This document shows, piece after piece, positions 1 to 47,978 of a DNA stretch of 51,549 bases; position 1 is the first letter of the stretch, and each line of letters opens with the position of its first letter. The position numbers were made by a program, and so were the translations under genes. The notes beneath the pieces are model-generated. The model was not told where the DNA came from. It worked only from the letters and a program-made list of their open reading frames with translations, and made no database searches. The stretch is from Burkholderiaceae bacterium. GTDB lineage: Bacteria; Pseudomonadota; Gammaproteobacteria; Burkholderiales; Burkholderiaceae_C. The stretch is from the NCBI GenBank assembly GCA_036568605.1, contig DATCSE010000038.1:1-51549 (forward strand), given 5' to 3'.

Positions 1-429
1 GTCCTAGGCTATACCACCGGCGTGTTCGACCTGTTCCACATCGGCCACGTGAACCTGCTGCGCAACGCGAAGTCGCTGTGCGACCGGCTGATCGTCGGCG
101 TCACGGTCGACGACCTGGTGCTGTACAAGAACAAGCATGCAGTGATCCCGTTCGACGAACGCATCGAGATCGTGCGAGCCTGCTCGTACGTGGACCTCGC
201 GGTTCCGCAGTTCACGATGGACAAGCTCGATGCCTGGCAGCGCTACAAGTTCAACGTGATGTTCGTCGGCGACGACTGGTACCAGAACGACCGCTGGAAG
301 GCGCTGGATGCCGAGTTCGGCGAGCGCGGCGTGCGCATCGTCTACTTCCCGTACACGAAGACGACCTCGTCGACGCTGATCAACGCGACGCTGGAGCGCC
401 TGCGCGGCCCCGCCGTCGCCGCGGCCTGA
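1..429 (+). CDS. Cytidylyltransferase-family protein (TagD / glycerol-3-phosphate cytidylyltransferase-like), 5' end cut by window edge
   Basis: Frame 1 is open from nt 1. Translation VLGYTTGVFDLFHIGHVNLLRNAK carries the HxGH nucleotidyltransferase signature of the cytidylyltransferase family. Stop TGA 427-429. Confidence 0.8.
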   Translation, partial: VLGYTTGVFDLFHIGHVNLLRNAKSLCDRLIVGVTVDDLVLYKNKHAVIPFDERIEIVRACSYVDLAVPQFTMDKLDAWQRYKFNVMFVGDDWYQNDRWKALDAEFGERGVRIVYFPYTKTTSSTLINATLERLRGPAVAAA

Positions 430-3879: not shown

Positions 3880-4073
3880 GCAAACCAACGGCAACGAGCA
3901 ATCGGAACCGGGGTCCGGAGTAAGCGGCCAATGTTGTGCGAGAGGCGTCACTGATTCAGCCTCCTGCAAAAACAAAGGATGACTCGCGCCGGGCGCAGCA
4001 AGCCAGAGGCTTCGGCCGCTGGCCCGGCGTCCAAAGCCGGATAGTCATTCATTAACCGTATGGAGAGTCTCAA

Positions 4074-4913
4074 ATGACCATTTCCGTCAACACCAACCTG
4101 TTCTCGCTGAACGCCCAGCGCAAGCTGGCGGGCACGGAATCCTCCCTCGCGACCTCGATGCAGCGCCTGTCCTCGGGCCTGCGGATCAACTCCGCAGCCG
4201 ACGACGCCGCCGGCCTCGCGATCTCTCAGCGCATGAGCGCCCAAGTCCGCGGCATGAACGTCGCGATCCGCAATGCCAACGACGGCATCTCGCTGGCGCA
4301 GACCGCCGACGGCGCGCTGGCTTCGGTCGGCGACTCGCTGCAGCGCATGCGTGAACTGGCGGTGCAGGCGCGCAACTCGACCAACAGCGACTCGGACAAG
4401 GACTCGCTGAACCTCGAGTTCCAGCAGCTCAGCTCGGAAATCGGCCGCGTGCTCGGCGGCACCACGTTCAACGGCAAGGCGATCCTGGGCGCCGACGCAG
4501 GCACGCTGACCTTCCAGGTCGGTGCCAACGTCACGACCAACGACTCGATCGACATCACGACGACCAACCTGACCACCGACGCGAAGATCACGACCGTGAC
4601 CGGCGCCTCGATCGGCAGCGCGGCCAACACCAGCGCAATCGCGACGGTGATCACCGACATCGACACGGCGATCGACGACATCAACAGCCAGCGCGCCACG
4701 TTCGGTGCCTCGCAGAACCGCTTCAACTCGGTGGTCTCGAACCTGCAGAGCTCGGTCGAGAACCAGTCGGCCGCGTCCAGCCGGATCACGGATGCCGACT
4801 TCGCGACGGAAACCGCGAACATGTCGCGCGCCCAGATCCTGCAACAGGCTGGCACCGCGATGGTCGCGCAAGCGAACCAGCTGCCGCAAAGCGTGCTGCG
4901 ACTGCTGCAGTAA
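4074..4913 (+). CDS. fliC: Flagellin (short, 279 aa), copy 1
   Basis: MTISVNTNLFSLNAQRKL...LQRLSSGLRINSAADDAAGLAISQRM N-terminus and ...SRITDADFATETANMSRAQILQQAGTAMVAQANQLPQSVLRLLQ C-terminus are canonical flagellin D0/D1 segments. SD GGAGAG lies 6 nt upstream. Confidence 0.97.
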   Translation: MTISVNTNLFSLNAQRKLAGTESSLATSMQRLSSGLRINSAADDAAGLAISQRMSAQVRGMNVAIRNANDGISLAQTADGALASVGDSLQRMRELAVQARNSTNSDSDKDSLNLEFQQLSSEIGRVLGGTTFNGKAILGADAGTLTFQVGANVTTNDSIDITTTNLTTDAKITTVTGASIGSAANTSAIATVITDIDTAIDDINSQRATFGASQNRFNSVVSNLQSSVENQSAASSRITDADFATETANMSRAQILQQAGTAMVAQANQLPQSVLRLLQ

Positions 4914-5001: not shown

Positions 5002-5161
5002 TCGGCACCGAATTGAGCCGTCTAGTCGCCGCATTTCGGGCGTTTGTCGGCCTGGTGACTACAGAACAATGCCACCACGCCTCACCGCTTTCTGTCAGGG
5101 GCGTGTGGTCCGGAATCCGGCACAGCCGGCCGGGAGCCCCTGATTCTGTGGAGTGCCCATC

Positions 5162-6001
5162 ATGCCGATGACGATCAACACCAACCTCATATCGCTGAAT
5201 GCCCAGCGCAACTTGAACGGCTCGCAGTCTTCGCTGGCGACGTCGATGCAGCGCCTGTCCTCGGGCCTGCGGGTGAATTCGGCGAAGGACGACGCGGCGG
5301 GCCTGGCCATCGCCGAGCGCATGAACGCGCAGGTTCGCGGCATGAACGTCGCGATCCGCAATGCCAACGACGGCATCTCGCTGGCGCAGACCGCCGACGG
5401 CGCGCTCTCTTCGATCGGCGACTCGCTGCAGCGCATGCGCGAACTCGCGGTGCAGGCACGCAATGCGACCAACAGCGATTCGGACAAGGACTCGCTGAAC
5501 CTCGAGTTCCAGCAGCTCAGCTCCGAAATCGGTCGCGTGCTGGCCGGCACGACCTTCAACGGCAAGTACATCCTCGGCGCCGACGCCGGCACGCTGACCT
5601 TCCAGGTCGGTGCCAACGTCACGACCAACGACTCGATCGACATCACGACGACCAACCTGACCACCGACGCGAAGATCACGACGGTGACCAGTGCCTCGAT
5701 CGGCAGCACCGCCAACACGGCCGCGATCGCGACCGTGATCCAGGACATCGACACCGCGCTGGACGACATCAACAGCCAGCGCGCGATCTACGGCGCCTCG
5801 CAGAACCGCTTCTCGGCGGTGATCACGAACCTGCAGACCTCGGTCGAGAACCAGTCCGCATCGCGCAGCCGCATCATGGACGCCGACTTCGCGCAGGAAA
5901 CCGCGAACATGTCACGCGCACAGATCCTGCAGCAGGCCGGCACCGCGATGGTCGCGCAGGCGAACCAGCTGCCGCAGATGGTCCTGAAGCTGCTGGGCTG
6001 A
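5162..6001 (+). CDS. fliC: Flagellin (short, about 279 aa), copy 2 (tandem paralog)
   Basis: MPMTINTNLISLNAQRNL...; same architecture as copy 1. GGAG (5150-5153) lies 8 nt before ATG 5162. Alternative starts are GTG 5153 and ATG 5168. Confidence 0.95.
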   Translation: MPMTINTNLISLNAQRNLNGSQSSLATSMQRLSSGLRVNSAKDDAAGLAIAERMNAQVRGMNVAIRNANDGISLAQTADGALSSIGDSLQRMRELAVQARNATNSDSDKDSLNLEFQQLSSEIGRVLAGTTFNGKYILGADAGTLTFQVGANVTTNDSIDITTTNLTTDAKITTVTSASIGSTANTAAIATVIQDIDTALDDINSQRAIYGASQNRFSAVITNLQTSVENQSASRSRIMDADFAQETANMSRAQILQQAGTAMVAQANQLPQMVLKLLG

Positions 6002-6157: not shown

Positions 6158-7615
6158 ATGTCCACTTCGATCAGCGGCACCGGTTCGGTCAGCTCTGCCG
6201 GCATCGGCAGCGGCCTGGACGTCAGCTCGATCATCAGCAAGCTGATGGAGGTCGAGAAGGCACCGCTGACGGCGCTGCAGACCAAGGAGACGTCGATCCA
6301 ATCGACGATCTCGACCTACGGCACGCTGAAGTCGGACGTCTCCGACCTGCGCGACGCGGCCCGCACGCTGATCAAGCCCAGCACCTGGTCGGCGACGACC
6401 GGCACCTCGTCCGATGCGACCTCGGTCAGCGTCGCGACCGGCACCAACGCCGCAACCGGCAACTACTCGGTGCAGGTGCAGAGCCTCGCGGCGGCGCAGT
6501 CGACGGTCAGCGGGACGTTCTCGTCGGCCGACGCGCTGGTCGGCTCGGGCACCCTGCACATCGACCTGGGCACCTGGGCGACCGGCAACGCGTCGTTCAC
6601 CGCGAAGAGCGGCAGCAGCGGCGTCGACATCACGGTCAGTGCGACCGACACGCTGACGACGCTCGCCGACAAGATCACCGCGTCGAGCGCCGGCGTCAAC
6701 GCGTCGGTCGTGACCGATGCGAGCGGCTCGCGGCTGGTGCTGACCTCGAAGACCACCGGCGTCGACAATGCATTTCGCATCACCGCGGTCGACAGCGACG
6801 GTGCGAACACCGATGCGAGCGGGCTGTCGGCGCTGGCCTACGACCCGGCCGGCGGCACGACCGCGACCACCTCGACGCAGAGCGCCGCAAACGCGAAGGC
6901 CACGATCAACGGCCTGAGCGTGACCTCGGCGACCAACACGCTGACCGACGTGATCAAGGGCCTGACGCTGACGCTGAACAAGGTCACGACCGGCCCGGTG
7001 CAGATCGGCATCGCGCAGGACACCAGTTCGATCAAGACCGCGGTGCAGAGCTTCGTCACCGCATACAACGCCTTGTCGTCGCTGCTGTCGACCGACCTCA
7101 AGTACGACAGCAGCACCTCCACCGCCGGCCCGCTGCAGGGCGATGCGAGCGCCCAGTCGCTGCAGCGCCAGCTGCGCAACCTGATCAGCGGCTCGTCGGG
7201 CGGCTCGTCGACCTTCGCGACGCTGTCCTCCATGGGTCTCGAGATCCAGACCGACGGCACGCTGAAGGTCAACGACACCAAGCTGACCGCTGCGCTGGCC
7301 AACCCGGCCGAGATGAAGAAGGCGTTCGCGAACGCCGACCTGAACAACGCCAGCAACAACGGTTTCGCCCAGCAGCTCAACCTGTTCGGCAATTCGGTGC
7401 TGGGCGGCGAAGGCCTGCTGACCACGCGCATCGCCGGATTGAACGCGAGCCTGACGCGCAACCAGGCCGACCAGGACAAGCTGCAGGCGCGGCTGGACGC
7501 CACGCAGGCCCGGCTGACGAAGCAGTACAACGCGCTGGACACCAAGATGGCCTCGCTGACGACGCTGAGCAACTACGTCACCCAGCAGATCGCGAACTGG
7601 AACAAGAGCAGCTGA
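6158..7615 (+). CDS. fliD: Flagellar filament cap protein FliD (hook-associated protein 2)
   Basis: N-terminus ISGTGSVSSAGIGSGLDVSSIISKLMEVEKAPLTALQTK and C-terminus ...RLTKQYNALDTKMASLTTLSNYVTQQIANW are typical of FliD. Confidence 0.95.
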   Translation: MSTSISGTGSVSSAGIGSGLDVSSIISKLMEVEKAPLTALQTKETSIQSTISTYGTLKSDVSDLRDAARTLIKPSTWSATTGTSSDATSVSVATGTNAATGNYSVQVQSLAAAQSTVSGTFSSADALVGSGTLHIDLGTWATGNASFTAKSGSSGVDITVSATDTLTTLADKITASSAGVNASVVTDASGSRLVLTSKTTGVDNAFRITAVDSDGANTDASGLSALAYDPAGGTTATTSTQSAANAKATINGLSVTSATNTLTDVIKGLTLTLNKVTTGPVQIGIAQDTSSIKTAVQSFVTAYNALSSLLSTDLKYDSSTSTAGPLQGDASAQSLQRQLRNLISGSSGGSSTFATLSSMGLEIQTDGTLKVNDTKLTAALANPAEMKKAFANADLNNASNNGFAQQLNLFGNSVLGGEGLLTTRIAGLNASLTRNQADQDKLQARLDATQARLTKQYNALDTKMASLTTLSNYVTQQIANWNKSS

Positions 7616-12974: not shown

Positions 12975-13770
12975 TCCGTCCCTGAAGACCAAGAACATCC
13001 CCTCGCCGAACGACGCCAAGGCCAATGCCTACGCCCGCTTCATTCCGCGCGAGGAGCTGAGCTCGTTCGCCGCGTGGAGCCCCGGCGACATCGGCGATGC
13101 CGGCGCGACGCCGCACCCGCTGCGCCGCGCGACCGACGAGGCTGCGAAGCGCAATGCCGCCGCGGGCGCGGCCGATGTCGCCGAGCAGATCGCGGCGCAG
13201 ATGCGCGCGGCGCGCCAGTCCGGCTACCAGGACGGCTACCGCGACGGCCTGGCCGCGCTCGAGGGCTTCAAGCAGAGCTACACGAGCCAGACCACCGCAC
13301 AGGTCGGCGCGCTGCTCGCGTCGTTCGGCGACGAGCTTGCCGGGCTGCAGCAGGAGATGGCGCGCACGCTGGCGATCGCCGCGACGCAGCTCGCGCACCG
13401 CATCGTGCGCAGCGAGATCGGCACGCGGCCCGAGCTGATCGCGCATGTCGCGCAGGAGGCGCTGGACACGCTGATGCTCAGCGCGAAGCACATCACGCTG
13501 CGCGTGCACCCGGACGACCACGCGCTGGTCCTGCAAGGCGCGGCCGAGACGCTGCAGACGCGCGGCGCGCGGCTGCTCGCCGACGCGTCGATGGCGCGCG
13601 GCGGCTGCCTGGTCGAATCCGACATCGGCATCATCGACGCGACCATCGAGACGCGCTGGCGCCGTGCGGCCGCCGCGCTGGGCATCGACGAGCCGTGGGA
13701 TGCGGGGCATGCCGTGCCGGTGGCCGACACGTCAGCAACGGCATCCGACGGATCGGACGACATCGCATGA
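12961..13770 (+). CDS. fliH: Flagellar assembly protein FliH
   Basis: 269 aa, overlapping fliG by 14 nt. ...[19 protein letters not shown]... and ...[20 protein letters not shown] are typical of FliH. Confidence 0.88.
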
Positions 13771-13777
13771 GCAACTT

Positions 13778-13873
13778 CCCCTCACCCCTGGCCCTCTCCC
13801 GCAAGCGGGAGAGGGAGAGGACCACATCGGCTTGCTCCCTCTCCCGCTTGCGGGAGAGGGTTGGGGTGAGGGG
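13778..13873. repeat. Compound REP-like palindromic element (family A), fills the fliH-fliI gap
   Basis: Outer arms CCCCTCACCCC(13778-13788)/GGGGTGAGGGG(13863-13873) enclose two 24-nt hairpins: CCCTCTCCCGCAAGCGGGAGAGGG (13792-13815) and CCCTCTCCCGCTTGCGGGAGAGGG (13837-13860). Confidence 0.9.
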
Positions 13874-13879
13874 AGTCCA

Positions 13880-15310
13880 GTGAACACCACGGCACCGCAA
13901 CATCCGCGCACGACCGAGCCCATGCAGGCGCAGTGGCAGCGCTATCTCGGCGACATGCGCAGCTTCAGCGCCGACAAGATCGCGCTCGAGACCCAGGGGC
14001 TGCTGGTGCGCGTGACCGGCCTGGTGCTCGAGGCAGCCGGCATCCGCGTGCCGGTCGGCTCGGTCTGCGAAGTGCGGATGGAAGGCCAGGCGCCGGTGAT
14101 CGCCGAAGTCGTCGGCTTCGCCGGCGACCGCGCGTACCTGATGCCCACCGGCGACATCCATGGCCTGGCGAGCGGCGCGCGCGTCGTGCCGCGGCCGTCG
14201 CCCATCGTGCCGCTGAAGCTGGGCGCCGCACACCACCCGTGGCGGCGCAACGAGGACCGCACGCTGCACCTGCCGGTCGGCGACGGGCTGCTCGGCCGCG
14301 TCGTCGATTCGCACGGCCACCCGATGGACCGGCGCGGTCCCATCGAGCAGGTTCACACCGAGCCGCTGACGCGCCGCCCGATCAACGCGATGGACCGCGA
14401 CCCGGTGCGTACGCCGCTGGACACCGGCGTGCGCGCGATCAACGCGATGCTGACCGTGGGCCGCGGCCAGCGCATCGGCTTGTTCGCCGGCACCGGCGTC
14501 GGCAAGTCGGTGCTGCTGGGCATGATGGCGCGCTACACCGCCGCCGACGTGATCGTCGTCGGGCTGATCGGCGAGCGCGGCCGCGAAGTCAAGGAGTTCA
14601 TCGAGGACATCCTCGGCGAAGAGGGCATGCGGCGCTCGGTCGTCGTCGCCGCGCCGGCCGACTCGCCGCCGCTGGTGCGCATGCAGGGCGCGAGTTACGC
14701 GACCGTGATCGCCGAGCACTTCCGCGACCGCGGCCTGAACGTGCTGCTGCTGATGGATTCGCTGACCCGCTATGCGATGGCGCAGCGCGAGATCGCGCTG
14801 GCGATCGGCGAGCCGCCGGCGACCAAGGGCTATCCGCCGAGCTGCTTCGCGAAGCTGCCGCAGCTCGTCGAGCGCAGCGGCAACGGCGTGGCCGGCGGCG
14901 GCTCGATCACCGCGTTCTACACGGTGCTGTCCGAAGGCGACGACCAGAACGACCCGATCGCCGACGCGGCACGCGGCATCCTGGACGGCCACATCGTGCT
15001 GTCGCGCGAGCTCGCCGAGGCCGGCCACTACCCGGCGATCGACATCGAACGCTCGATCTCGCGCGTGATGACCAGCGTGGCCGAGCCGGCGCACATCGAA
15101 GCGGCGCGGCGCTTCCGCCAGCTGCATGCGCGCCACAACAAGGCGCGCGACCTGATCCAGCTCGGCGCCTACCTGCCGGGCCAGGACGCCGAGCTCGACA
15201 CCGCGGTGCGGCTGCATGGCGGCATGACCGCGCTGCTGCAGCAGAACATGCACGAGCCGGCGACGCTGGCCGCGAGCGTCGCCGCGCTGCGCGGCGTGAC
15301 AAACGCTTGA
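13880..15310 (+). CDS. fliI: Flagellum-specific ATP synthase FliI
   Basis: Walker [40 protein letters not shown]. Start is either GTG 13880 (GAGG/GGAG supplied by the repeat arm) or ATG 13922 (MQAQWQRYL). The ORF upstream of 13880 reads through the repeat and is not credible. Confidence 0.95.
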
Positions 15311-17402: not shown

Positions 17403-18068
17403 GTGGCTGCTGCCGCTGCTGTTCCCGCTGCCGATGCCAACGTCGCCGCACCGGCGAAGAAGGGCAAGAAGAAGCTCTTCATCATGCTCGCGATCGGCGT
17501 GCTGGTGCTGCTGCTGGCCGGCGCCGGCGCGGTCCTGGTCCTGAAGAAGAAGGCGGCCGCGCAGGACGCCGACGACGGCGAAGACGGTAGTACCGCCGCC
17601 GCAGCCACCCACAAGGTCGAGAAGCCCGACCTGAAGCACCCGCCGGTGTTCCTGCCGCTGGACCCGTTCGTCGTGAACCTGGCCGACAAGGAAACCGACC
17701 GCTACGCGCAGATCGGCATCACGCTCGAGGTCGAGGACCCGAAGTTCGGCGAGCTGCTGAAGACCTACATGCCGGCGATCCGCAACGCGATCCTGCTGAT
17801 CCTGGCGCAGAAGTCGTCGGCCGACCTGCTCGACCGCCCCGGCAAGGAGAAGCTTGCCGGCGAGATCCAGCGCGAAGCGGCGCGGGTCATGGGCTACGAG
17901 GTCGACGAACCCGAAGCGCCCAAGGCCGCAGCCAAGGAAGAGGCGAAGGCCGACGGTGCGAAGACCGGTGACGACGACGAGAAGCCCAAGGCGAAGAAGA
18001 AGCGCCGCGCGAACGTCGAGCCCAACCCGATCAAGCACGTGCACTTCTCGAACTTCATCATTCAGTGA
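17403..18068 (+). CDS. fliL: Flagellar basal-body-associated protein FliL (with a charged C-terminal insertion)
   Basis: GTG start, 6 nt after AAGGAG. Single TM (LFIMLAIGVLVLLLAGAGAVLVL). FliL core VFLPLDPFVVNLAD....RYAQIGITLEV....... and the ending HVHFSNFIIQ. Confidence 0.88.
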   Translation: MAAAAAVPAADANVAAPAKKGKKKLFIMLAIGVLVLLLAGAGAVLVLKKKAAAQDADDGEDGSTAAAATHKVEKPDLKHPPVFLPLDPFVVNLADKETDRYAQIGITLEVEDPKFGELLKTYMPAIRNAILLILAQKSSADLLDRPGKEKLAGEIQREAARVMGYEVDEPEAPKAAAKEEAKADGAKTGDDDEKPKAKKKRRANVEPNPIKHVHFSNFIIQ

Positions 18069-18122
18069 TCATGACTGCAGCCATCGCCAACGCGCGGGCC
18101 GAGCGCCGGGCCGCTCACAAGC

Positions 18123-18172
18123 CGGCCCGCATCCCCTCGGGGGATCGACCGACGTACTCGTCGGGCGAGGGG
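18123..18172 (+). repeat. Structured intercistronic element (family B), copy 1, directly upstream of fliM
   Basis: CGGCCCGC + hairpin ATCCCC-TCG-GGGGAT + hairpin CCGACG-TACT-CGTCGG + CGAGGGG. It matches the reverse complement of 46765-46814 at 46 of 50 positions. Confidence 0.85.
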
Positions 18173-18177
18173 CTCAC

Positions 18178-19182
18178 ATGAATCAGCAGATCCTCTCGCA
18201 AGACGAAGTCGACGCGCTGCTGCAAGGCATCACCGGCGAGAGCCAGAAGCTCGAGCCGGAAGAGGTCGAAGCCGGCGCGATCCGCACGTATGACATCTCC
18301 AGCCAGGAGCGCATCGTCCGCGGCCGCATGCCGACGATGGAGATCATCAACGAGCGCTTCGCCCGCAACATCCGCATCGGCCTGTTCAACTTCATCCGCA
18401 AGAGCCCGGAGATCGCGATCGGCAGCATCAAGGTGCAGAAGTACAGCGCCTTCCTGCGCGAGATCGTCGTGCCGACCAACTTCAACATCGTCAGCGTGCG
18501 GCCGCTGCGCGGCTCGGGGCTGATCGTCTGCGACCCGACGCTGGTGTTCGCGGTGATCGATGCCCTCTTCGGCGGCGCCGGCAAGTACCACACGCGCATC
18601 GAGGGCCGCGACTTCTCGGCCACCGAGCAGCGCATCATCACGCGGCTGGTCGAGGTGATCACCGCCGAGTACAAGAAGGCCTGGCACGGCATCTACCCGC
18701 TGGAGCTGGAGTACCAGCGCTCGGAGATGCAGCCGCAGTTCGCGAACATCGCGACGCCCAGCGAGATCGTCGTCGCGACCAGCTTCACGCTGGAGATCGG
18801 CGACACCAGCGGCACGATCCACTTCTGCATTCCGTACGCGACGCTGGAGCCTATCCGCGACGTGCTGTATTCGACGATCCAGGGCGACGCGTCCGAGCCC
18901 GACCGGCGCTGGGTCAACCTGATGAAGCAGCAGATCCAGGCGGCCGAGGTCGAGCTGATCGCCGAGCTCGCGACCGCGCCGGCCACCGTCGAGCAGCTGC
19001 TCGCGTTCAAGGTCGGCGACTTCGTCGAGCTCGACCTGGCGCAGACGATCGAGGCCAAGGTCGCCGGCGTGCCGGTGCTGGACTGCAGCTACGGCACATC
19101 GAACGGACGCTATGCGCTGAAGGTCAATCAATTGCTTGCCAGCTCGCCGCAGACCTGGCTGGGAGAATCGCATGTCAACTGA
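18178..19182 (+). CDS. fliM: Flagellar motor switch protein FliM
   Basis: MNQQILSQDEVDALLQG is the CheY-P binding N-terminus. ...ERFARNIRIGLFNFIRK... Start ATG 18178 lies inside a longer ORF. Confidence 0.96.
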   Translation: MNQQILSQDEVDALLQGITGESQKLEPEEVEAGAIRTYDISSQERIVRGRMPTMEIINERFARNIRIGLFNFIRKSPEIAIGSIKVQKYSAFLREIVVPTNFNIVSVRPLRGSGLIVCDPTLVFAVIDALFGGAGKYHTRIEGRDFSATEQRIITRLVEVITAEYKKAWHGIYPLELEYQRSEMQPQFANIATPSEIVVATSFTLEIGDTSGTIHFCIPYATLEPIRDVLYSTIQGDASEPDRRWVNLMKQQIQAAEVELIAELATAPATVEQLLAFKVGDFVELDLAQTIEAKVAGVPVLDCSYGTSNGRYALKVNQLLASSPQTWLGESHVN

Positions 19183-20700: not shown

Positions 20701-20970
20701 ATGGACTCCCAACAAGTCTTCACCGCCGGCCAGCAAGGCCTGTACATGCTGCTGATGGTCTCGGCGCCCATCCTGCTGACCGTGCTGGTCGTCGGCCTGG
20801 TGGTCAGCATCTTCCAGGCCGCGACGCAGATCCACGAGGCGACGCTGTCGTTCGTGCCGAAGATCGTCGCCGCGGTCGCGGTGCTCGCGATCGCCGGGCC
20901 GTGGATGCTGACCAGCCTGGTCGAGTACATCCAGCGCACGCTGCAGTCGATTCCGACGGTGGTCGGCTGA
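20701..20970 (+). CDS. fliQ: Flagellar export gate protein FliQ
   Basis: 89 aa, with LLMVSAPILLTVLVVGLVVSIFQAATQIHEATLSFVPKI. Confidence 0.96.
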   Translation: MDSQQVFTAGQQGLYMLLMVSAPILLTVLVVGLVVSIFQAATQIHEATLSFVPKIVAAVAVLAIAGPWMLTSLVEYIQRTLQSIPTVVG

Positions 20971-20977
20971 TGCAGGC

Positions 20978-21061
20978 CCTCACCCCGGCCCTCTCCCGCA
21001 AGCGGGAGAGGGAGTGCGACTTGTCCCCTCTCCCGCTTGCGGGAGAGGGCTAGGGTGAGGG
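20978..21061. repeat. Compound REP-like palindromic element (family A), fills the fliQ-fliR gap
   Basis: Outer arms CCCTCACCCC(20978-20987)/GGGTGAGGG(21053-21061). Inner hairpins are 20989-21012 (loop-side CAAG) and 21026-21049 (loop-side CTTG), the same architecture as 13778-13873. Confidence 0.9.
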
Positions 21062-21068
21062 TCGTCGC

Positions 21069-21830
21069 GTGCTCACGTTCACCGATACCCAGGTCCTCGC
21101 CTGGATCACGCCGCTGCTGTGGCCGTTCTTGCGCGTGCTCGCGCTGTTCGGCGCGCTGCCGGTGTTCGCCCAGCGCAGCGTGCCGATGCGCGTGCGCGTC
21201 GCGCTCGCGTTCCTGATCGCGTTCTGCGCGCAGGCGTCGCTGCCGGCGATGCCGGCGATCCCGCTGGACTCGGCCGCCGCAGTGCTGGCCGTGCTTCAGC
21301 AGGTGCTGATCGGCGTCTCGCTGGGTTTCGCGGTTCGGCTCGTGTTCGCCGCGGTCGAGTTCGCCGGCGAAATCATCGGCTTGCAGATGGGCCTGAACTT
21401 CGCCGGGTTCTTCGACCCGATGAGCGGCGGCCAGACCACCGCGGCCAGCCGCTTCTTCGGCGTCTCGGTGAGCTGGCTGTTCATCGTGATGGGCGGGCAC
21501 CTGCTGCTGATCGGTGCGGTCGTCAAGAGCTTCGACGCGTTCCCGGTCGGCCCGGACCCGTTTGCGTTCCTGCGCACCGTGCAGCCGCAGGTCTGGGGCG
21601 CGGAGGTGTTTCGCCTCGGGCTGTGGATCGCGCTGCCGCTGGTCGCGATGCTGCTGTTCGTGAACCTGGTGCTGGGGATCATCTCCCGCGTCGCGTCGCA
21701 GATGAACATCTTCGCGATCGGCTTCCCGATCACCGTCTCGATCGGCCTGATCGGCATGCTGCTGACGCTGCCGATGATGCAGGTGCCGTTCACGATGGCG
21801 CTGGAGCGCATGCTCGCGTATTTCCAGTAG
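21069..21830 (+). CDS. fliR: Flagellar export gate protein FliR
   Basis: 253-aa polytopic protein, with ...WPFLRVLALFGALPVF.....P.RVRVALAFLIA... GTG start, 7 nt after the repeat arm GGGTGAGGG. Confidence 0.93.
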   Translation: MLTFTDTQVLAWITPLLWPFLRVLALFGALPVFAQRSVPMRVRVALAFLIAFCAQASLPAMPAIPLDSAAAVLAVLQQVLIGVSLGFAVRLVFAAVEFAGEIIGLQMGLNFAGFFDPMSGGQTTAASRFFGVSVSWLFIVMGGHLLLIGAVVKSFDAFPVGPDPFAFLRTVQPQVWGAEVFRLGLWIALPLVAMLLFVNLVLGIISRVASQMNIFAIGFPITVSIGLIGMLLTLPMMQVPFTMALERMLAYFQ

Positions 21831-39830: not shown

Positions 39831-39905
39831 CCCGCCGTAGTTCAATGGATAGAACGGCCGCCTCCTAAGCGGCAAATACAGGTTCGATTCCTGTCGGAGG
39901 GACCA
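39831..39905 (+). tRNA. tRNA-Arg (anticodon CCT)
   Basis: Manual cloverleaf: acceptor CCCGCCG / CGGAGGG; D-arm GTTC-AATGGATA-GAAC; anticodon arm GCCGC-CTCCTAA-GCGGC; T-arm ACAGG-TTCGATT-CCTGT; discriminator A and an encoded CCA. There is one G4:A69 mismatch in the acceptor stem. Confidence 0.85.
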
Positions 39906-45482: not shown

Positions 45483-46759
45483 CCCATTCGCAGCTTGTCG
45501 ATGCCCACCAGGCGGTGGTACAGCGCATACAGCACGAGCACCAGCGCCAGCAGCGTGGCGCTCAGCGCGGCGGCCATGCCCCAATTGGTGACCTGGCTCG
45601 CGAAGTACGCGATGAAGTAGCTCAGCATCTGGTCCTGCGGGCCGCCCACCAGCGCCGGCGTGATGTAGTAGCCGAGCGCGAGGATGAACACCAGCAGCGC
45701 CCCGGCGCTGACGCCGGGCAGGCTCAGCGGCAGGTACACGCGCAGGAAGGCCGACACCGGCGGCGCGCCCAGCGACGCCGCCGCGCGCATGTAGTTGGGC
45801 GGGATGCTCTTCATCACGCTGTAGATCGGCAGCACCATGAAGGGCAGCAGGATGTGCGTCATCGCGATCAGCACGCCGATGCGGTTGTGGATCAGCTCCA
45901 GCGGATGCTGCGGATCGACGAGCCCGAGCCAGCCCAGCACGCTGTTGACCACGCCGCCGCTCTGCAGCACGACCACCCAGGCCGTCGTGCGCACCAGCAG
46001 CGAGGTCCAGAACGGCAGCAGCACCATCAGCAGCAGCAGGCGTGCGGTGCGCGCCGGCGCCGTCGCGATCCAGTACGCGAGCGGATAGCCCAGCAGCAGG
46101 CAGATCAGCGTCACCGACAGGCTGATCGCGAAGGTGCGCAGGATCACGTCGCGGTAGATCGCGTTGTCGTCCTGCGCGGTCGCGATGTCGCCGTGCGCGT
46201 CGCGCCGCAGGTCGACCGACGCGAGCAGGTAGAAGTCGGTGGCCGTCGGCAGCGCGCGGCGGATCACGCTCCAGGTGACCGGCTCGCCCCAGCGCTCGTC
46301 GATCTCCTTCAGGCGCTGCAGCCCCGTGCCCGCCGGCACCGGCTCGCGGTTCACCTCGCGTGCCGTCTTCAGCACCATCGAGCGCAGGCCCGACTGGTAG
46401 TAGTTCAGTCGCTTCGCGACCTCGGCCACGCCCTCGCGCGGGCTGTCGCGCAGGTCGGCGACCAGCGCATCGCCGAGCGCGGCGCTCGGTGCGTTGTCCG
46501 CGGTCCAGGCCTTCATCGCCCGCGCGGTCGCCGGCAACATGGCGGAGACCTCGCGGTTGTCGACGGCGCGCGTGAGCAGCATGCCGATCGGCACGACGAA
46601 CACGAGCAGCAGGAACAGCAGCAGCGGCGCGATCAGCGCGATCGCCTTCCAGCGGCTCACGCGCTGCAGCCGCGCGATCTGGCGGCGCAGCACGGCGCGA
46701 TCGCCGTCGCTCGTGTCGGACACCGCGTGCGCGGTGTCCGTGGCCAGGGCCAGGCTCAT
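45479..46759 (-). CDS. ABC transporter permease (PotB/PotH-like) with a large extra loop after TM1
   Basis: C-terminal 230 aa is a typical PotB-type permease (NYMRAAASLGAPPVSAFLRVYLP). The N-terminal 190 aa has one TM followed by a soluble segment of about 145 aa. Confidence 0.88.
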   Translation of the reverse strand: MSLALATDTAHAVSDTSDGDRAVLRRQIARLQRVSRWKAIALIAPLLLFLLLVFVVPIGMLLTRAVDNREVSAMLPATARAMKAWTADNAPSAALGDALVADLRDSPREGVAEVAKRLNYYQSGLRSMVLKTAREVNREPVPAGTGLQRLKEIDERWGEPVTWSVIRRALPTATDFYLLASVDLRRDAHGDIATAQDDNAIYRDVILRTFAISLSVTLICLLLGYPLAYWIATAPARTARLLLLMVLLPFWTSLLVRTTAWVVVLQSGGVVNSVLGWLGLVDPQHPLELIHNRIGVLIAMTHILLPFMVLPIYSVMKSIPPNYMRAAASLGAPPVSAFLRVYLPLSLPGVSAGALLVFILALGYYITPALVGGPQDQMLSYFIAYFASQVTNWGMAAALSATLLALVLVLYALYHRLVGIDKLRMG

Positions 46760-46764
46760 GACAG

Positions 46765-46814
46765 CCCCTCGTCCGATGAGTACATCGGCCGATCCCCCGA
46801 GGGGATGCGGGCCG
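46765..46814 (-). repeat. Structured intercistronic element (family B), copy 2, directly upstream of the permease gene
   Basis: Its reverse complement is CGGCCCGCATCCCCTCGGGGGATCGGCCGATGTACTCATCGGACGAGGGG, identical to 18123-18172 at 46 of 50 positions. It has the same 5-nt spacing from GAGGGG to the ATG. Confidence 0.85.
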
Positions 46815-46849
46815 CATGGGCCACGAAGTGGGCCACTTCGTGGCCCATG
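46815..46849. repeat. Perfect 35-bp palindrome (17-bp arms, 1-nt centre)
   Basis: CATGGGCCACGAAGTGG-G-CCACTTCGTGGCCCATG, located between the SBP gene stop (46923) and the permease start (46759). Confidence 0.9.
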
Positions 46850-46922
46850 GGAGCGGCCCGGCGCTCGGCCCTCGGAAGCAAGGTCGACACAGGGTGTCCC
46901 ATGGCAATCGCCTAGCGGTGGA

Positions 46923-47978
46923 TCAACGCGCGAGCCACTTGTTGAAGCGCTCGGTGAGCTCTTCTTCGTGGTCCGCCCAGAACTGCGGCGACACGACGAA
47001 GGCCGTCTTCACGTTCGCCGGCGCGTTCGGCAGGTCGGCCTGGATCGCGGCCGGCACCTTGTTCATCGCGGCCTTCAGCGTCGGGCCGTACGAGATGTAC
47101 TGCGACTGCATGGCCATCACGTCGGGCTTGGCGCTGAAGGCGACGAACTGCTGCGCCAGCGCCAGGTTCTTCGAGCCCTTGGGAATGGCCCACAGGTTGA
47201 AGTCCAGGCCCTGGCCGTCCCACACGATCTTGAAGTGCTTGCCGCTGTTCTTCACCGCGTCGTAGATGCGGCCGTTCCAGGCGGTGGTCATCACGACCTC
47301 GCCGTCGGCGAGCAGCTGCGGCGGCTGCGCGCCCGCGGTCCACCACACCTTCACGTAGGGGCGCAGCTGCTCGAGCTTGTTGAACGCGCGGTCGGCGCCG
47401 GCCTTGGTGCCGAGCACCTTGTAGACGTCCTTGGGCGCGACGCCGTCGGCGATCAGCGCGAACTCCAGCGTCGTCTTCGGCGACTTGCGCAACGCGCGCG
47501 GGCCGGGAAACTTCTTCACGTCCCACAGGTCGGCCATGGTCTGCGGGCCGCCCTGCGGGAACTTGTCGACGTTGTAGGCGTAGATCGTGCCGAAGACGAT
47601 GGTGCCCAGCGCGCAGTCGTAGGCGGCGCCGTCGATGAACTTGTCCTTGCCGCCGAGCTTGCTGTAGTCGATCTTCTCGAGCCAGCCTTCGTCGCAGCCC
47701 TGCAGCGCATGGCTGGGCTCGACGTCCACCACGTCCCAGGTCACCTGCTTGGTCTCGACCATGCCCTTGATCTTGGCGACCGAGCCGTCCCACTCGTCCT
47801 GCAGCACCTTGGTGCCGGTGGCCTTGGCGAAGGGCTCCATGTAGGTCTTCTCCTGGCTCTTGGTGTAGGCGCCGCCCCAGGATGTGACGGTCAGCGTGGA
47901 CTGCGCGAGCGCAGGCGCCGCGATCGATGTCGCAGCGATCACCATGACGGCCTGGAGGGCGAGGGACTTGCGGTTCAT
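46923..47978 (-). CDS. ABC transporter substrate-binding protein (PotD/PotF-like polyamine/amine type)
   Basis: Signal peptide MNRKSLALQAVMVIAATSIAAPALA, then LTVTSWGGAYTKSQ... AGGAG lies 6 nt upstream of ATG 47978. Confidence 0.88.
   Translation of the reverse strand: MNRKSLALQAVMVIAATSIAAPALAQSTLTVTSWGGAYTKSQEKTYMEPFAKATGTKVLQDEWDGSVAKIKGMVETKQVTWDVVDVEPSHALQGCDEGWLEKIDYSKLGGKDKFIDGAAYDCALGTIVFGTIYAYNVDKFPQGGPQTMADLWDVKKFPGPRALRKSPKTTLEFALIADGVAPKDVYKVLGTKAGADRAFNKLEQLRPYVKVWWTAGAQPPQLLADGEVVMTTAWNGRIYDAVKNSGKHFKIVWDGQGLDFNLWAIPKGSKNLALAQQFVAFSAKPDVMAMQSQYISYGPTLKAAMNKVPAAIQADLPNAPANVKTAFVVSPQFWADHEEELTERFNKWLAR

What the first reader, a model, noticed from the sequence alone, without database searches (positions are those of the whole stretch)
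18123..18180. Conserved two-hairpin intercistronic leader shared by fliM and an unrelated ABC permease gene, with compensatory base changes
The 50 nt at 18123-18172 (fliL|fliM gap) and the reverse complement of 46765-46814 (SBP|permease gap) match at 46 of 50 positions. Both copies have the same orientation relative to the downstream gene. Both end in CGAGGGG followed by exactly 5 nt and the ATG, so the element supplies the Shine-Dalgarno sequence in each case.

The element contains two hairpins: ATCCCC-TCG-GGGGAT and CCGACG-TACT-CGTCGG. All four differences between the copies fall on two opposing position pairs of the second hairpin. One pair is a C:G to T:A compensatory change (CCGACG/CGTCGG versus CCGATG/CATCGG). 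The other is an A.G to G.A swap at the stem base.

This pattern is what selection on a folded RNA or DNA would produce, not what a neutral repeat would show. A portable structured leader plus RBS module that links a flagellar switch gene and a transporter gene is not something I can assign to a named family.
Basis: seen in the sequence. Interest (0 to 1): 0.72.

Follow-up and report, generated by a model that had tools for sequence, protein, structure and literature searches.

The report
Gene-junction repeat carrying a ribosome-relay ORF
The two matching stretches are copies of a roughly 90-base repeat scattered through one family of freshwater and soil bacteria; it sits between genes of the same operon and carries its own ribosome-binding site, start codon and a tiny through-reading frame, apparently so that ribosomes pass from one gene to the next, much like the MIRU repeats of mycobacteria.

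Summary
In detail: 46/50 identity, the same orientation, CGAGGGG-N5-ATG, and one C:G to U:A compensatory pair. The unit is larger than reported, with an 88-nt core at 18094-18181 (+) and 46756-46873 (-).

It belongs to a dispersed repeat family: at least 117 loci, almost all Sphaerotilaceae, sometimes in tandem arrays of 87-90 nt. Three helices are present. Two covary strongly, and the third covaries in diverged copies.

The element is not a random REP. Flanking genes are co-oriented in 59 cases against 3, and 61 of 113 copies supply the start codon of the downstream gene.

Its ATG usually overlaps or abuts the upstream stop, and its TGA overlaps the downstream ATG (ATGA). The frame is kept in 28 of 35 cases (p=2e-8) despite variable lengths, 1-nt indels, nested inserts and tandem arrays. 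Some copies are fused as N-terminal extensions of rsmA and rsmH.

Close relatives have empty sites at both window junctions. There is no Rfam or Pfam match.

The closest known analogues are the MIRUs of mycobacteria (same architecture) and possibly the ~90-bp betaproteobacterial BRE (two shared motifs). Verdict: a new member of a known kind, most likely relaying ribosomes between genes. The role of the hairpins is unresolved.

The parts
18071..18181 (+). Relay mini-ORF of copy A: 36 codons, MTAAIANARAERRAAHKPARIPSGDRPTYSSGEGLT*. Its ATG lies 2 nt after the fliL stop (18066-18068). Its TGA (18179-18181) overlaps the fliM ATG (18178-18180).
   Evidence: family-wide frame conservation
18094..18181 (+). 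Copy A, conserved 88-nt core of the repeat (GCGGGCCG ... CATGA)
   Evidence: nhmmer E=5e-25; covariance model 108.5 bits; alignment A1
18094..18130 (+). Helix 1 of copy A. The arms GCGGGCCG (18094-18101) and CGGCCCGC (18123-18130) enclose a nearly invariant 21-nt loop, AGCGCCGGGCCGCTCACAAGC.
   Evidence: 7 of 8 pairs show changes on both sides across the family
18131..18145 (+). Hairpin 1 of copy A, ATCCCC-TCG-GGGGAT. Its 5' arm CCCCTCG is also complementary to the SD region CGAGGGG.
   Evidence: Invariant in the sampled set by search design. Compensated variants occur in diverged copies: L143, L040, L110, L092. Alternative pairing appears in the MFE fold of the consensus.
18146..18167 (+). 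Hairpin 2 of copy A, CGACCGACG-TACT-CGTCGGGCG
   Evidence: 6 pairs covary, with 12-25 double changes per pair
18167..18181 (+). Shine-Dalgarno GAGGGG (18167-18172), a 5-nt spacer, then ATGA (18178-18181), which holds the fliM start and the relay-ORF stop
46756..46902 (-). Relay mini-ORF of copy B: 48 codons, MGHPVSTLLPRAERRAAPMGHEVAHFVAHAARIPSGDRPMYSSDEGLS*. Its ATG (46902) lies 20 nt after the stop of the solute-binding-protein gene (46923-46925). Its TGA overlaps the permease ATG (46759-46757).
46756..46873 (-). Copy B core. Helix 1 arms at 46873-46866 and 46814-46807; hairpin 1 at 46806-46792; hairpin 2 at 46791-46770; SD at 46770-46765; ATGA at 46759-46756.
   Evidence: nhmmer E=1e-19; covariance model 69.3 bits
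46815..46849 (-). Nested 35-nt palindrome CATGGGCCACGAAGTGGCCCACTTCGTGGCCCATG in the helix-1 loop of copy B. It replaces 5 nt, a net gain of 30 nt, so the frame is kept.
   Evidence: The same kind of insert occurs in L031, L051 and L091 with a net gain of 27 or 30 nt.
46886..46902 (-). 5' extension of the 'long' form in copy B (ATGGGACACCCTGTGTC), including a small hairpin GACAC-CCT-GTGTC (46898-46886). It is shared by a subfamily with the form ATGAGACACCCTGTGTCAACC.

Best explanation
What it is. The two stretches are copies of a dispersed, orientation-specific intercistronic repeat of Sphaerotilaceae (Burkholderiales). The core is 88-90 nt. A 'long' form carries about 21-24 extra nt at the 5' end.

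Where it sits. The element lies between co-directional genes of an operon. It brings three GC-rich helices, a Shine-Dalgarno sequence (GAGGGG), a start codon 5 nt downstream of the SD, and an open frame that runs through the whole element.

Proposed mechanism (inferred).
1. Ribosomes finishing the upstream gene restart at an ATG that overlaps or abuts its stop codon (typically ATGA).
2. They translate through the element, melting its hairpins.
3. They terminate at the TGA of the terminal ATGA.
4. They reinitiate on the overlapping ATG of the downstream gene, helped by the element's SD.

In this way about 90-160 nt of inserted, highly structured RNA does not break translational coupling. The architecture is the same as that of mycobacterial MIRUs.

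Shown:
- family membership and orientation bias;
- fixed SD-to-ATG geometry;
- covariation in the helices;
- conservation of the relay frame;
- filled sites in the window against empty sites in relatives.

Inferred:
- that the relay ORF is translated and mediates coupling;
- that the element spread by insertion at (C)ATG(A) sites;
- that the hairpins act at the RNA level, for example by masking the SD so that downstream initiation depends on relay translation, or by stabilising the mRNA.
For: Family. They are almost all Roseateles, Rhizobacter, Pelomonas, Ideonella, Aquabacterium, Piscinibacter, Methylibium, Leptothrix or unclassified Burkholderiales MAGs (taxonomy). A profile search of these loci found 143 copies.

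Orientation. Flanking genes are (+,+) in 59 cases and (-,-) in 3, p=2e-14.

Geometry. Of 113 copies, 61 supply the start of a long high-GC3 ORF at the canonical position: 54 ATG, 5 GTG, 2 TTG.

Relay frame.
- The nearest upstream ATG is in the frame that ends at the terminal ATGA in 28 cases, against 3 and 4 for the other two frames (p=2e-8).
- For upstream ATGA alone the counts are 22:1:1.
- In many copies that ATG overlaps the stop of the upstream gene.
- Relay ORFs cluster at 30 and 37-38 codons.
- The 1-nt indel GCCGC(T)CCCAAG is compensated upstream, for example L033 against L094.

Nested inserts and arrays.
- Nested inserts add 27 or 30 nt.
- Arrays with an 89-nt period keep ATGA. Arrays with 87- or 90-nt periods read through. 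The four units in L045 form one 128-codon ORF running from the upstream stop to the downstream ATG.

Fusions. In L083 (RsmA), L101 and L110 (RsmH), L103 and others, the terminal ATG is lost. The only in-frame ATG, GTG or TTG is the relay ATG, so the element must be translated there.

Independent support.
- In relatives, unrelated fliL-fliM spacers of at least 25 nt that have an ATG at the fliL stop bridge to the fliM ATG in 18 of 20 cases, p=2e-7.
- A different repeat in the fliH|fliI gap of this window lies in a 38-codon ATGA...GTGA ORF.

Structure. 93.7% of cells are paired. There are 133 double-change cells against 25 in shuffles (0 of 500 shuffles reach the observed value), and slid controls give 7-34.

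Filled and empty sites.
- FliM relatives at 95% identity (L118, L120) have 16-18-nt gaps without the element. L143 has the element.
- Permease relatives at 82-87% identity have 9-40-nt gaps (sequences read for three of them), against 163 nt in the window.

Precedent. MIRUs are described as inserting at start codons with an internal ORF coupled at -4 spacing (PMC12548453). They have ORFs whose ends overlap the adjacent genes, tetranucleotide direct repeats, and filled and empty sites (PMC3184786).
Against: - No expression, ribosome-profiling or reporter data exist, so translation of the relay ORF and coupling are inferred from frame statistics and fusion cases.
- Not all copies fit. About 10 abut the stop of a convergent gene, 15 gene-start copies have no ATG within 45 nt upstream, and copy B's relay ATG is 20 nt from the upstream stop.
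- Part of the frame bias could be inherited from master copies of length 3n-1 rather than selected at each site.
- The element has its own good SD, so initiation independent of coupling is possible.
- RNA-level action of the helices is not established. G.U exceeds A.C in hairpin 2 (21:7, p=0.0125) but not in helix 1 (7:9 once the outermost pair is excluded).
- The sample was seeded with an exact 18-mer from one genome per species, so hairpin 1 variation and true copy number per genome are unknown.
- No transposase was identified.
Confidence: 0.68

Rival explanations
1. A purely selfish mobile element of the MITE, PATE or MIRU type. It targets (C)ATG(A) at gene boundaries. The hairpins are DNA-level signals for its transposase or recombinase. 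The SD, ATG and open frame exist only because insertions that lack them are lethal or counter-selected, so there is no benefit to the host. This overlaps with the best explanation. It differs on why the helices covary and on whether the host gains anything.
For: - Both window sites are filled where relatives have empty sites.
- Direct repeats CATG(A), and in some copies up to 7 nt (L094 CATGAAG, L004 CATGACG), flank the element.
- The 3' CAT abuts either a gene start or the stop of a convergent gene: 10 copies lie within 0-6 nt of such a stop. This fits a target of ATGA/TCAT in either orientation.
- Tandem arrays and subfamilies exist.
- Helix 1 shows no G.U over A.C excess, as expected for a DNA-level palindrome.
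Against: - No transposase or RAYT-like motif was found in about 1.2 Mb of flanks, though only by a crude regex.
- No clear terminal inverted repeats were seen. The 5' end of the long form matches the reverse complement of the 3' end at only about 10 of 16 positions (read by eye).
- The direct repeats coincide with functionally required ATGA sequences, so they are not clean target-site duplications.
- The 59:3 orientation bias and the relay frames in unrelated fliL-fliM spacers need selection at the level of translation.
Confidence: 0.4
2. A cis-regulatory structured mRNA leader. The hairpins would regulate downstream translation or mark an RNase processing or stabilising site in response to a signal or factor. 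The nearly invariant helix-1 loop and hairpin 1 would serve as a binding site.
For: - Covarying helices in the sense orientation.
- The 21-nt helix-1 loop and the hairpin 1 sequence are nearly invariant across genera.
- The SD is predicted to be mostly paired: mean unpaired probability 0.24, against 0.59 for the ATG and 0.35 overall. The MFE fold of the consensus pairs CCCCUCG with CGAGGGG.
- G.U exceeds A.C in hairpin 2.
Against: - It sits in front of functionally unrelated genes, including flagellar, transport, rRNA methylase and dehydrogenase genes. A common regulatory logic is therefore unlikely.
- Close relatives do without it at the same junctions.
- It occurs in tandem arrays and as N-terminal protein fusions.
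- It has no Rfam match.
- Hairpin 1 invariance is partly an artefact of the exact-match search.
Confidence: 0.2
3. A real small-protein gene of about 30-48 aa, (M..)RAERRAAPKPARIPSGDRPxYxSDEGL[ST], whose peptide has a function.
For: - The frame is open and conserved.
- Gene callers have predicted 42 related 'hypothetical proteins' of 36-84 aa.
- The N-terminal MRHPVST motif recurs with codon-sized indels.
Against: - Hairpin 2 changes keep base pairs but scramble residues, for example PTYPSD, PMYSSD, RTYSFA.
- The 1-nt indel makes the 5' half read in two different frames, RAERRAA against GRAPGRP.
- Start positions vary from 3 to 29 nt upstream.
- Units concatenate or fuse to other proteins.
- No Pfam or NCBIfam family matches.
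Confidence: 0.05
4. An ordinary REP/BIME-type extragenic palindrome or an intrinsic terminator, placed near the two start codons by chance.
For: GC-rich hairpins, intergenic location and many copies.
Against: - Strong orientation bias and fixed SD-ATG geometry.
- No T-run, and no terminator-like or promoter-like site.
- Copies form direct tandem arrays rather than inverted pairs.
- No GT[AG]G head.
Confidence: 0.03

Closest known systems
MIRU (mycobacterial interspersed repetitive units; Supply et al. 1997, as summarised in PMC12548453 and PMC3184786)
   Same: - A 40-100-bp dispersed repeat inside operons, co-transcribed with them.
- Contains a small ORF whose ends overlap the stop and start codons of the flanking genes (-4 spacing, ATGA).
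- GC-rich internal inverted repeats.
- Short flanking direct repeats.
- Filled sites against empty sites in relatives.
- Variable-number tandem arrays.
- Thought to insert at start codons with minimal effect on expression.
   Different: - The host phylum is unrelated (Actinomycetota against Betaproteobacteria), and no sequence relationship was tested or is expected.
- This element has three helices with demonstrated covariation, its own strong SD at a fixed 5-nt spacing, and a potential anti-SD/SD alternative pairing.
- The frame statistics, compensated indels and N-terminal fusion cases were established here. They are not taken from the MIRU literature.
BRE, Beta-proteobacterial repeat element (Hot et al. 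2011, PMC3110155)
   Same: - The same bacterial order and a ~90-bp unit.
- GC-rich, mostly intergenic, with some copies overlapping ORF ends.
- Tandem VNTR-like arrays; function unknown.
- Shares two motifs in the same order and at similar spacing (CGGGCCGC.CCAAG, then a CCCCTYGGGGG hairpin), followed by a second hairpin and a G-run. A combined regex hits 6 of 8 BRE sequences, 91 copies here, and none in shuffles.
   Different: - The profile HMM of this family does not detect Bordetella BREs, and the global alignment score is only about 1.3 sd above shuffles.
- Bordetella BRE is bounded by T- and A-runs, not by ATGA and an SD.
- BRE array periods of 83-86 nt are not frame-preserving (PMC3110155 supplement).
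- No relay ORF or orientation rule was reported for BRE, and Sphaerotilaceae were not among its hosts.
Neisseria REP2 and Borrelia IR elements (reviewed in PMC3184786)
   Same: [quoted passage not shown]
   Different: - Those elements also carry a promoter. No promoter-like site is found here, and the element sits inside operons.
- No relay ORF with overlaps at both ends has been described for them.
REP/BIME/REPIN elements with RAYT transposases
   Same: Short GC-rich palindromes, present in hundreds of copies, intergenic, and maintained by compensatory change.
   Different: - No GT[AG]G head and no inverted doublets.
- Strong co-orientation with genes.
- Carries an SD, a start codon and an open frame.
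- No RAYT motif was seen in the flanks, though the test was crude.
Rickettsia palindromic elements (RPE) and other repeats fused in frame to genes (PMC3184786)
   Same: Some copies are translated as part of a host protein, here as N-terminal extensions of RsmA, RsmH and others.
   Different: Fusion is the minority state here (about 10 of 113 copies). The usual state is a separate mini-ORF between genes.

Membership tests
MIRU-like intercistronic repeats (architecture) | Short (40-100 bp) dispersed repeat, many copies per genome | tested here: met
   88-90-nt core. At least 117 loci across genomes, with 143 copies in the fetched loci. Two copies in the 51.5-kb window.
MIRU-like intercistronic repeats (architecture) | Lies between co-directional genes and is co-oriented with them | tested here: met
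   (+,+) 59 against (-,-) 3; upstream gene + in 79 and - in 12
MIRU-like intercistronic repeats (architecture) | Internal ORF whose start and stop overlap the stop and start codons of the flanking genes | tested here: met
   Relay frame in 28 of 35 copies (p=2e-8). Upstream ATGA overlaps the upstream stop in many copies. The terminal ATGA is the downstream start. Window copies.
MIRU-like intercistronic repeats (architecture) | Filled sites against empty sites in relatives, with short flanking direct repeats | tested here: inconclusive
   Filled and empty sites are shown at both window junctions. Direct repeats CATG(A) are present, but they coincide with functionally required codons, so target duplication is not proven.
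MIRU-like intercistronic repeats (architecture) | Variable-number tandem arrays | tested here: met
   Arrays of 2-5 units with periods of 87, 89 and 90 nt in L011, L037, L045, L062, L072 and L108
MIRU (the mycobacterial family itself) | Sequence homology to MIRU types I-III; mycobacterial host | not tested
The host here is Sphaerotilaceae, so membership in the family proper is not claimed.
BRE (Hot et al. 2011) | Detectable sequence similarity to the BRE consensus (the authors used >70% identity) | tested here: inconclusive
   No nhmmer hit, and the global alignment is about 1.3 sd above shuffles. Two ordered motifs are shared (regex hits 6 of 8 BRE, 91 copies here, 0 in shuffles).
BRE (Hot et al. 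2011) | ~90-bp unit, betaproteobacterial, tandem arrays | tested here: met
   PMC3110155
REP/REPIN-RAYT | Palindrome with a conserved GT[AG]G head, inverted doublets and an associated RAYT gene | tested here: not met
   No such head. Arrays are direct, not inverted. No RAYT-like motif in six-frame translations of all loci, though the regex was crude.
MITE | Terminal inverted repeats plus target-site duplication | tested here: inconclusive
   The core ends are not inverted repeats. The 5' end of the long form matches the reverse complement of the 3' end at about 10 of 16 positions by eye. Flanking CATG(A) repeats are ambiguous.
Curated RNA families (Rfam 15) | Score at or above the gathering threshold of any family | tested here: not met
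   Only a tRNA in the window. Best E-value hits on the element are 0.29-2, far below threshold.
Intrinsic terminator / promoter-bearing repeat (Neisseria REP2 type) | GC hairpin plus T-run, or -35/-10 hexamers inside the element | tested here: not met
   No terminator-like and no promoter-like sites around either copy
Small-protein family | Match to a Pfam or NCBIfam model, with residues conserved rather than base pairs | tested here: not met
   No family matches. Hairpin 2 changes preserve pairing rather than residues, and the 5' half is read in two frames.

The most novel reading that the evidence does not exclude
Ribosome relay may be a general, selected solution in these high-GC bacteria. 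Under this reading, any sizeable insertion between translationally coupled genes survives only if an ORF bridges the upstream stop to the downstream start.

This repeat family would then be a mobile element that evolved to exploit the rule. It would target ATGA stop-start overlaps and carry a complete coupling cassette: an open frame in a length class of 3n-1, an SD, an ATGA, and an anti-SD/SD hairpin that makes downstream initiation depend on relay translation.

If this is correct, it would be the first such system outside mycobacteria. It would come with covariation-supported RNA structure, and it would explain why it is tolerated even in front of flagellar and essential rRNA-methylase genes.
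Probability: 0.3. Interest if true: 0.75.

Novelty: new member of a known kind. Interest (0 to 1): 0.5.

Why it matters
- It shows how a bacterial genome can absorb hundreds of structured 90-nt insertions inside operons without uncoupling gene expression. It also extends the MIRU principle from mycobacteria to Betaproteobacteria.
- The frame statistics, compensated frameshifts, frame-preserving arrays and N-terminal fusions make 'translation for its own sake' (a ribosome-delivery ORF) directly testable with simple reporters or ribosome profiling.
- For annotation, many 30-50-aa 'hypothetical proteins' and odd N-terminal extensions in Sphaerotilaceae genomes are probably this element. Start codons of downstream genes can be placed with confidence at the element's ATG.
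- The tandem arrays are potential VNTR typing markers, as MIRUs and BREs are.

Tried and rejected
- Rfam at gathering thresholds on the window and at E-value thresholds on the element: nothing relevant.
- blastn of the element against plasmids: no match.
- Exact look-up of the window's FliM protein: not on record.
- Pfam and NCBIfam searches on the mini-ORF peptides: none.
- Protein search with the 48-aa peptide: only unnamed small hypothetical proteins.
- Literature search for the sequence itself: no relevant paper. Search for repeats in Rubrivivax, Leptothrix and Methylibium: nothing.
- RAYT-like motif regex on all loci: none, but the test is crude.
- G.U against A.C asymmetry to decide between RNA-level and DNA-level selection: hairpin 2 gives 21:7 but helix 1 shows no excess, so the result is inconclusive.
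- Homology to Bordetella BRE by profile HMM and by global alignment: not significant. Only the two-motif pattern is shared.
- The idea that the variable 5' spacer is a relic of the downstream gene's N-terminus was rejected for fliM. My recollection of E. coli FliM is that its N-terminus resembles the window FliM start at the element ATG (MNQQILSQDEVDALL). Relatives' FliM proteins begin with the same MNQQILS at the same point.
- A covariation test of the anti-SD:SD alternative pairing was not informative, because all of its columns are invariant in the sample.
Full report
**1. The observation**

The two stretches are as described. The region 18123-18172 (+) and the reverse complement of 46765-46814 differ at 4 of 50 positions. 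The repeat finder reports 59 nt at 90% identity (I1). The 18-mer CATCCCCTCGGGGGATCG occurs exactly twice in the window, against 0.11 expected even with three mismatches allowed.

Both copies end in CGAGGGG, 5 nt, then ATG. Pfam confirms the flanking genes:
- Copy A: FliL (17403-18068) and FliM (ATG at 18178).
- Copy B, on the minus strand: an SBP_bac_8 solute-binding protein (stop at 46923-46925) and a BPD_transp_1 permease (ATG at 46759), with an ABC ATPase further upstream.

Of the four differences, one pair is a true C:G to U:A compensation. The other (A.G against G.A) is a purine-purine mismatch at a position that is unpaired in 57 of 101 family members.

The shared unit is longer than reported. 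A block GGGCCGAGCGCCGGGCCGCTC is also shared, at 18096-18116 (+) and 46851-46871 (-). Copy B has a 35-nt palindrome (46815-46849) where copy A has 5 nt.

**2. It is a dispersed repeat family**

Nearly all come from Sphaerotilaceae genera or from unclassified Burkholderiales MAGs. The genera are Roseateles, Pelomonas, Paucibacter, Rhizobacter, Ideonella, Aquabacterium, Piscinibacter, Aquincola, Methylibium, Leptothrix and Rubrivivax (taxonomy). A handful of hits (Palleronia, Halomonas, a planctomycete) share only the 18-mer and are chance matches.

The consensus core is:

GCGGGCCGAGCGCCGGGCCGC(T)CCCAAGCCGGCCCGCATCCCCTCGGGGGATCGnCCGACGTACyCGTCGGnCGAGGGGCTGnCATGA

A profile built from the copies finds 143 copies in the fetched loci and only the two in the window. 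A covariance model agrees: 108.5 and 69.3 bits, with the next hit at 16.5 bits.

Several loci carry direct tandem arrays of 2-5 units with periods of 87, 89 or 90 nt. Subfamilies exist:
- a 'long' form with a 5' extension (ATGAGACACCCTGTGTCAACC...), as in copy B;
- forms with palindromes nested in the first loop, as in copy B;
- a larger form with extra hairpins.

**3. Structure**

RNAalifold on 101 distinct copies predicts three helices. I tested an extended version of 23 pairs:
- 93.7% of cells are paired.
- 133 cells have changes on both sides, against 25 ± 4 in shuffles (0 of 500 shuffles reach the observed value). Slid controls give 7-34.
- Helix 1 (GCGGGCCG/CGGCCCGC, enclosing a nearly invariant 21-nt loop) has 7 covarying pairs.
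- Hairpin 2 has 6 covarying pairs, with 12-25 double changes each.

Hairpin 1 is invariant in this set because the search required it. Diverged copies found by the profile do show compensated variants: GTCCCC..GGGGAC in L143 and L040, ACCCTC..GAGGGT in L110, and GCCCCC..GGGGGC in L092.

The data do not settle whether selection acts on RNA or on DNA. G.U outnumbers A.C by 21:7 in hairpin 2 (p=0.0125), but not in helix 1.

There is no Rfam match. Neither copy has promoter-like or terminator-like sites around it.

**4. Position and orientation are not random**

I called flanking genes by open frame and third-position GC. The element is co-oriented with both neighbours in 59 cases and anti-oriented to both in 3 (p=2e-14).

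The 113 well-aligned copies fall into these classes:
- 61 supply the start codon of a long high-GC3 ORF at the canonical position (54 ATG, 5 GTG, 2 TTG).
- 10 are internal to arrays.
- About 10 run on in the relay frame into the downstream gene.
- 10 have the stop codon of a convergent gene within 0-6 nt of the terminal CAT.
- The remaining 22 comprise 10 in which another frame runs on into a long ORF (some with displaced starts), 3 with a more distant convergent stop, 7 unclassified and 2 cut by the end of the locus.

The SD-ATG spacer is 5 nt in 71 of 81 copies that have an ATG.

**5. The relay ORF**

In both window copies a small ORF runs through the element.
- Copy A: 18071-18181, 36 codons. 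The ATG is 2 nt after the fliL stop, and the TGA overlaps the fliM ATG.
- Copy B: 46902-46756, 48 codons. The TGA overlaps the permease ATG.

Family-wide, the nearest ATG within 45 nt upstream of the core is in the frame that terminates at the terminal ATGA in 28 copies. The other two frames have 3 and 4 (p=2e-8). For upstream ATGA motifs the split is 22:1:1. In many copies that ATG overlaps the stop codon of the upstream gene, so the junction reads gene A-ATGA-mini-ORF-ATGA-gene B. Relay ORFs cluster at 30 codons (ATG-to-ATG distance 89 nt) and at 37-38 codons for the long form.

The frame survives every kind of length change I could find:
- The common 1-nt indel GCCGC(T)CCCAAG is offset by 1 nt upstream, for example L033 against L094.
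- Nested palindromes add 27 or 30 nt.
- Arrays with an 89-nt period keep ATGA at each junction.
- Arrays with 87- or 90-nt periods lose the TGA and read through. The four units in L045 form one 128-codon ORF, and the five units in L062 form one 157-codon ORF. Each runs from the upstream stop region to the downstream ATG.

The peptide itself is not conserved where base pairs are. Hairpin 2 variants scramble residues, and the 5' half is read in two frames. No Pfam or NCBIfam family matches. The large protein collection holds only 42 unnamed small 'hypothetical proteins' of this kind. I conclude that the act of translation is what is conserved, not the product.

**6. Evidence that the frame is actually read**

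In about ten copies the terminal ATG/TGA is lost and the relay frame continues into the downstream gene. Examples:
- L083: RsmA, ...ARIPSGDRPAYPPVEGL-HQARKRFGQHFL
- L101 and L110: RsmH, ...EGL(H/S)HTTVLLNEA
- L103

In these, the only in-frame ATG, GTG or TTG is the relay ATG near the upstream stop. These housekeeping proteins must therefore be made with an element-encoded N-terminal extension. L101 and L110 are orthologous, yet they read the 5' half of the element in different frames and still stay open.

**7. Independent support for a relay rule**

Eighty metagenomic FliM loci were fetched. After removing duplicates, 37 distinct fliL-fliM junctions have spacers of at least 25 nt. Of these, 20 have an ATG within -4 to +12 of the fliL stop. 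In 18 of those 20, that ATG opens an ORF ending exactly at the fliM ATGA (p=2e-7), although the spacers are unrelated in sequence.

In the window itself, two gaps hold a different REP-like repeat:
- fliH|fliI: the repeat lies inside a 38-codon ORF from ATGA (13767) to GTGA (13880-13883).
- fliQ|fliR: the same repeat has an ORF starting at TGATG (20970) and stopping 15 nt before the fliR GTG.

**8. Insertion**

Both window sites are filled relative to close relatives.
- FliM relatives at 95% identity (L118, L120) have 16-18-nt fliL-fliM gaps without the element. L143 (93%) has it.
- Permease relatives at 82-87% identity have 9-40-nt SBP-permease gaps and start at (A/G)TGAGC. I read the junction sequences for three of them. 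The window has 163 nt.

The element is flanked by direct repeats of CATG(A), occasionally up to 7 nt. Its 3' CAT abuts gene starts or convergent stops. This is consistent with insertion at (C)ATG(A), as proposed for MIRUs. It is not proven, because those bases are also functionally required. No transposase was found, though the search was crude.

**9. Mechanism**

*Best supported.* The element is a MIRU-like intercistronic repeat whose internal ORF relays ribosomes from the upstream stop to the downstream start, with its own SD. Insertion therefore does not break translational coupling.

*Inference on the hairpins.* The SD is predicted to be mostly paired: mean unpaired probability 0.24, against 0.59 for the ATG. 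In the consensus fold, the 5' arm of hairpin 1 (CCCCUCG) pairs with CGAGGGG. This would make downstream initiation depend on a ribosome translating through the element. The alternative pairing cannot be tested by covariation in this sample. The helices could equally be DNA-level signals for mobilisation, or mRNA stabilisers.

**10. Comparison with known elements**

| Element | What is shared | What differs | Source |
|---|---|---|---|
| MIRU | Short operon-internal repeat; ORF ends overlap flanking genes at -4 spacing; GC-rich inverted repeats; tetranucleotide direct repeats; filled and empty sites; VNTR arrays | Different phylum; family membership proper not claimed | PMC12548453, PMC3184786 |
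| BRE (betaproteobacterial repeat) | ~90-bp unit; tandem arrays; function unknown; two motifs in the same order | Not detected by the profile; bounded by T-runs; array periods not frame-preserving | PMC3110155 |
| Neisseria REP2 | Supplies an RBS and an ATG, with two stem-loops | Also carries a promoter | PMC3184786 |

For BRE, a distant relationship is possible but unproven. I found no description of this Sphaerotilaceae family or of its relay-frame properties.

**11. Verdict**

- The element is a new member of a known kind (MIRU-like coupling-preserving repeats).
- Interest is moderate. It is not a specific fliM-transporter regulatory link. It is a clean, statistically strong case of frame-conserved 'ribosome relay' through a structured repeat, and it can be tested directly.

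Noticed in passing
window 13767-13883 (+): The fliH|fliI gap holds a different REP-like inverted doublet (CCCTCTCCCGCAAGCGGGAGAGGG, twice). It lies inside a 38-codon [41 protein letters not shown]. The ORF's ATG overlaps the fliH stop (ATGA), and its TGA overlaps the fliI GTG start (GTGA). This is the same relay arrangement with an unrelated repeat.
   Followed up: partly
window 20968-21071 (+): The fliQ|fliR gap holds the same second repeat family (20977-21061). An ORF starts at ATG 20970, overlapping the fliQ stop (TGATG), and ends at TAG 21051-21053, 15 nt before the fliR GTG (21069). This is a near-relay rather than an exact overlap.
   Followed up: partly
L119, L123, L127, L133, L143-L145, L149, L153, L155, L156, L160, L174, L177-L179, L185, L192 (upstream of the FliM match): In metagenomic relatives, fliL-fliM spacers of 25-190 nt with unrelated sequences carry an ORF from an ATG at the fliL stop to the TGA overlapping the fliM ATG. 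This holds in 18 of the 20 spacers that have such an ATG. It suggests a general selected relay at this junction.
   Followed up: partly
L083, L101, L110, L103, L081, L106 (element copies): The terminal ATG/TGA of the element is lost and the relay frame runs into the downstream gene (RsmA, RsmH and others). The result is a predicted element-encoded N-terminal extension of about 30-40 aa.
   Followed up: partly
L038 about 190-330 (-) and L098 about 6750-6880 (-): About 36 nt encoding the C-terminus of the upstream gene (QVISVNGGMVG*) is present on both sides of the element. The ORF through the element ends at a TGA that overlaps the GTG of the next gene. This is a long flanking duplication, unlike a simple 4-nt target repeat.
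   Followed up: no
window 46815-46849; L031, L051, L091; proteins P0001, P0008, P0038: Secondary palindromes are nested in the loop of helix 1. One type is GGGCCACGAAGTGGCCCACTTCGTGGCCC. Another type translates as PVLSLVEGP. In the DNA copies read (the window copy, L031, L051 and L091) they add 27 or 30 nt.
   Followed up: partly
L014, L032, L036, L041, L057, L040 (4877-5016): A larger subfamily of about 140 nt has an extra hairpin (GGCGATGTGCTCGCGGC...GCCGCGAGCATCGCC) between helix 1 and hairpin 1, and an extended hairpin 2.
   Followed up: no
window 4061-4360 and 5149-5448: A 300-nt direct repeat at 83% identity, 1088 nt apart, plus a 61-nt repeat at 98% identity (4492-4552 and 5580-5640). 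These may be tandem paralogous genes; they were not examined.
   Followed up: no
window 39831-39902 (+): A tRNA gene, the only Rfam match at gathering threshold in the window (65.3 bits).
   Followed up: no
Bordetella BRE sequences (PMC3110155, supplementary list S1): The published ~90-bp betaproteobacterial repeat BRE shares the motifs CGGGCCGC.CCAAG and CCCCTYGGGGG with this element, in the same order. It has T- and A-runs where this family has a GC helix and the SD/ATGA. It may be a distant relative with a different lifestyle.
   Followed up: partly
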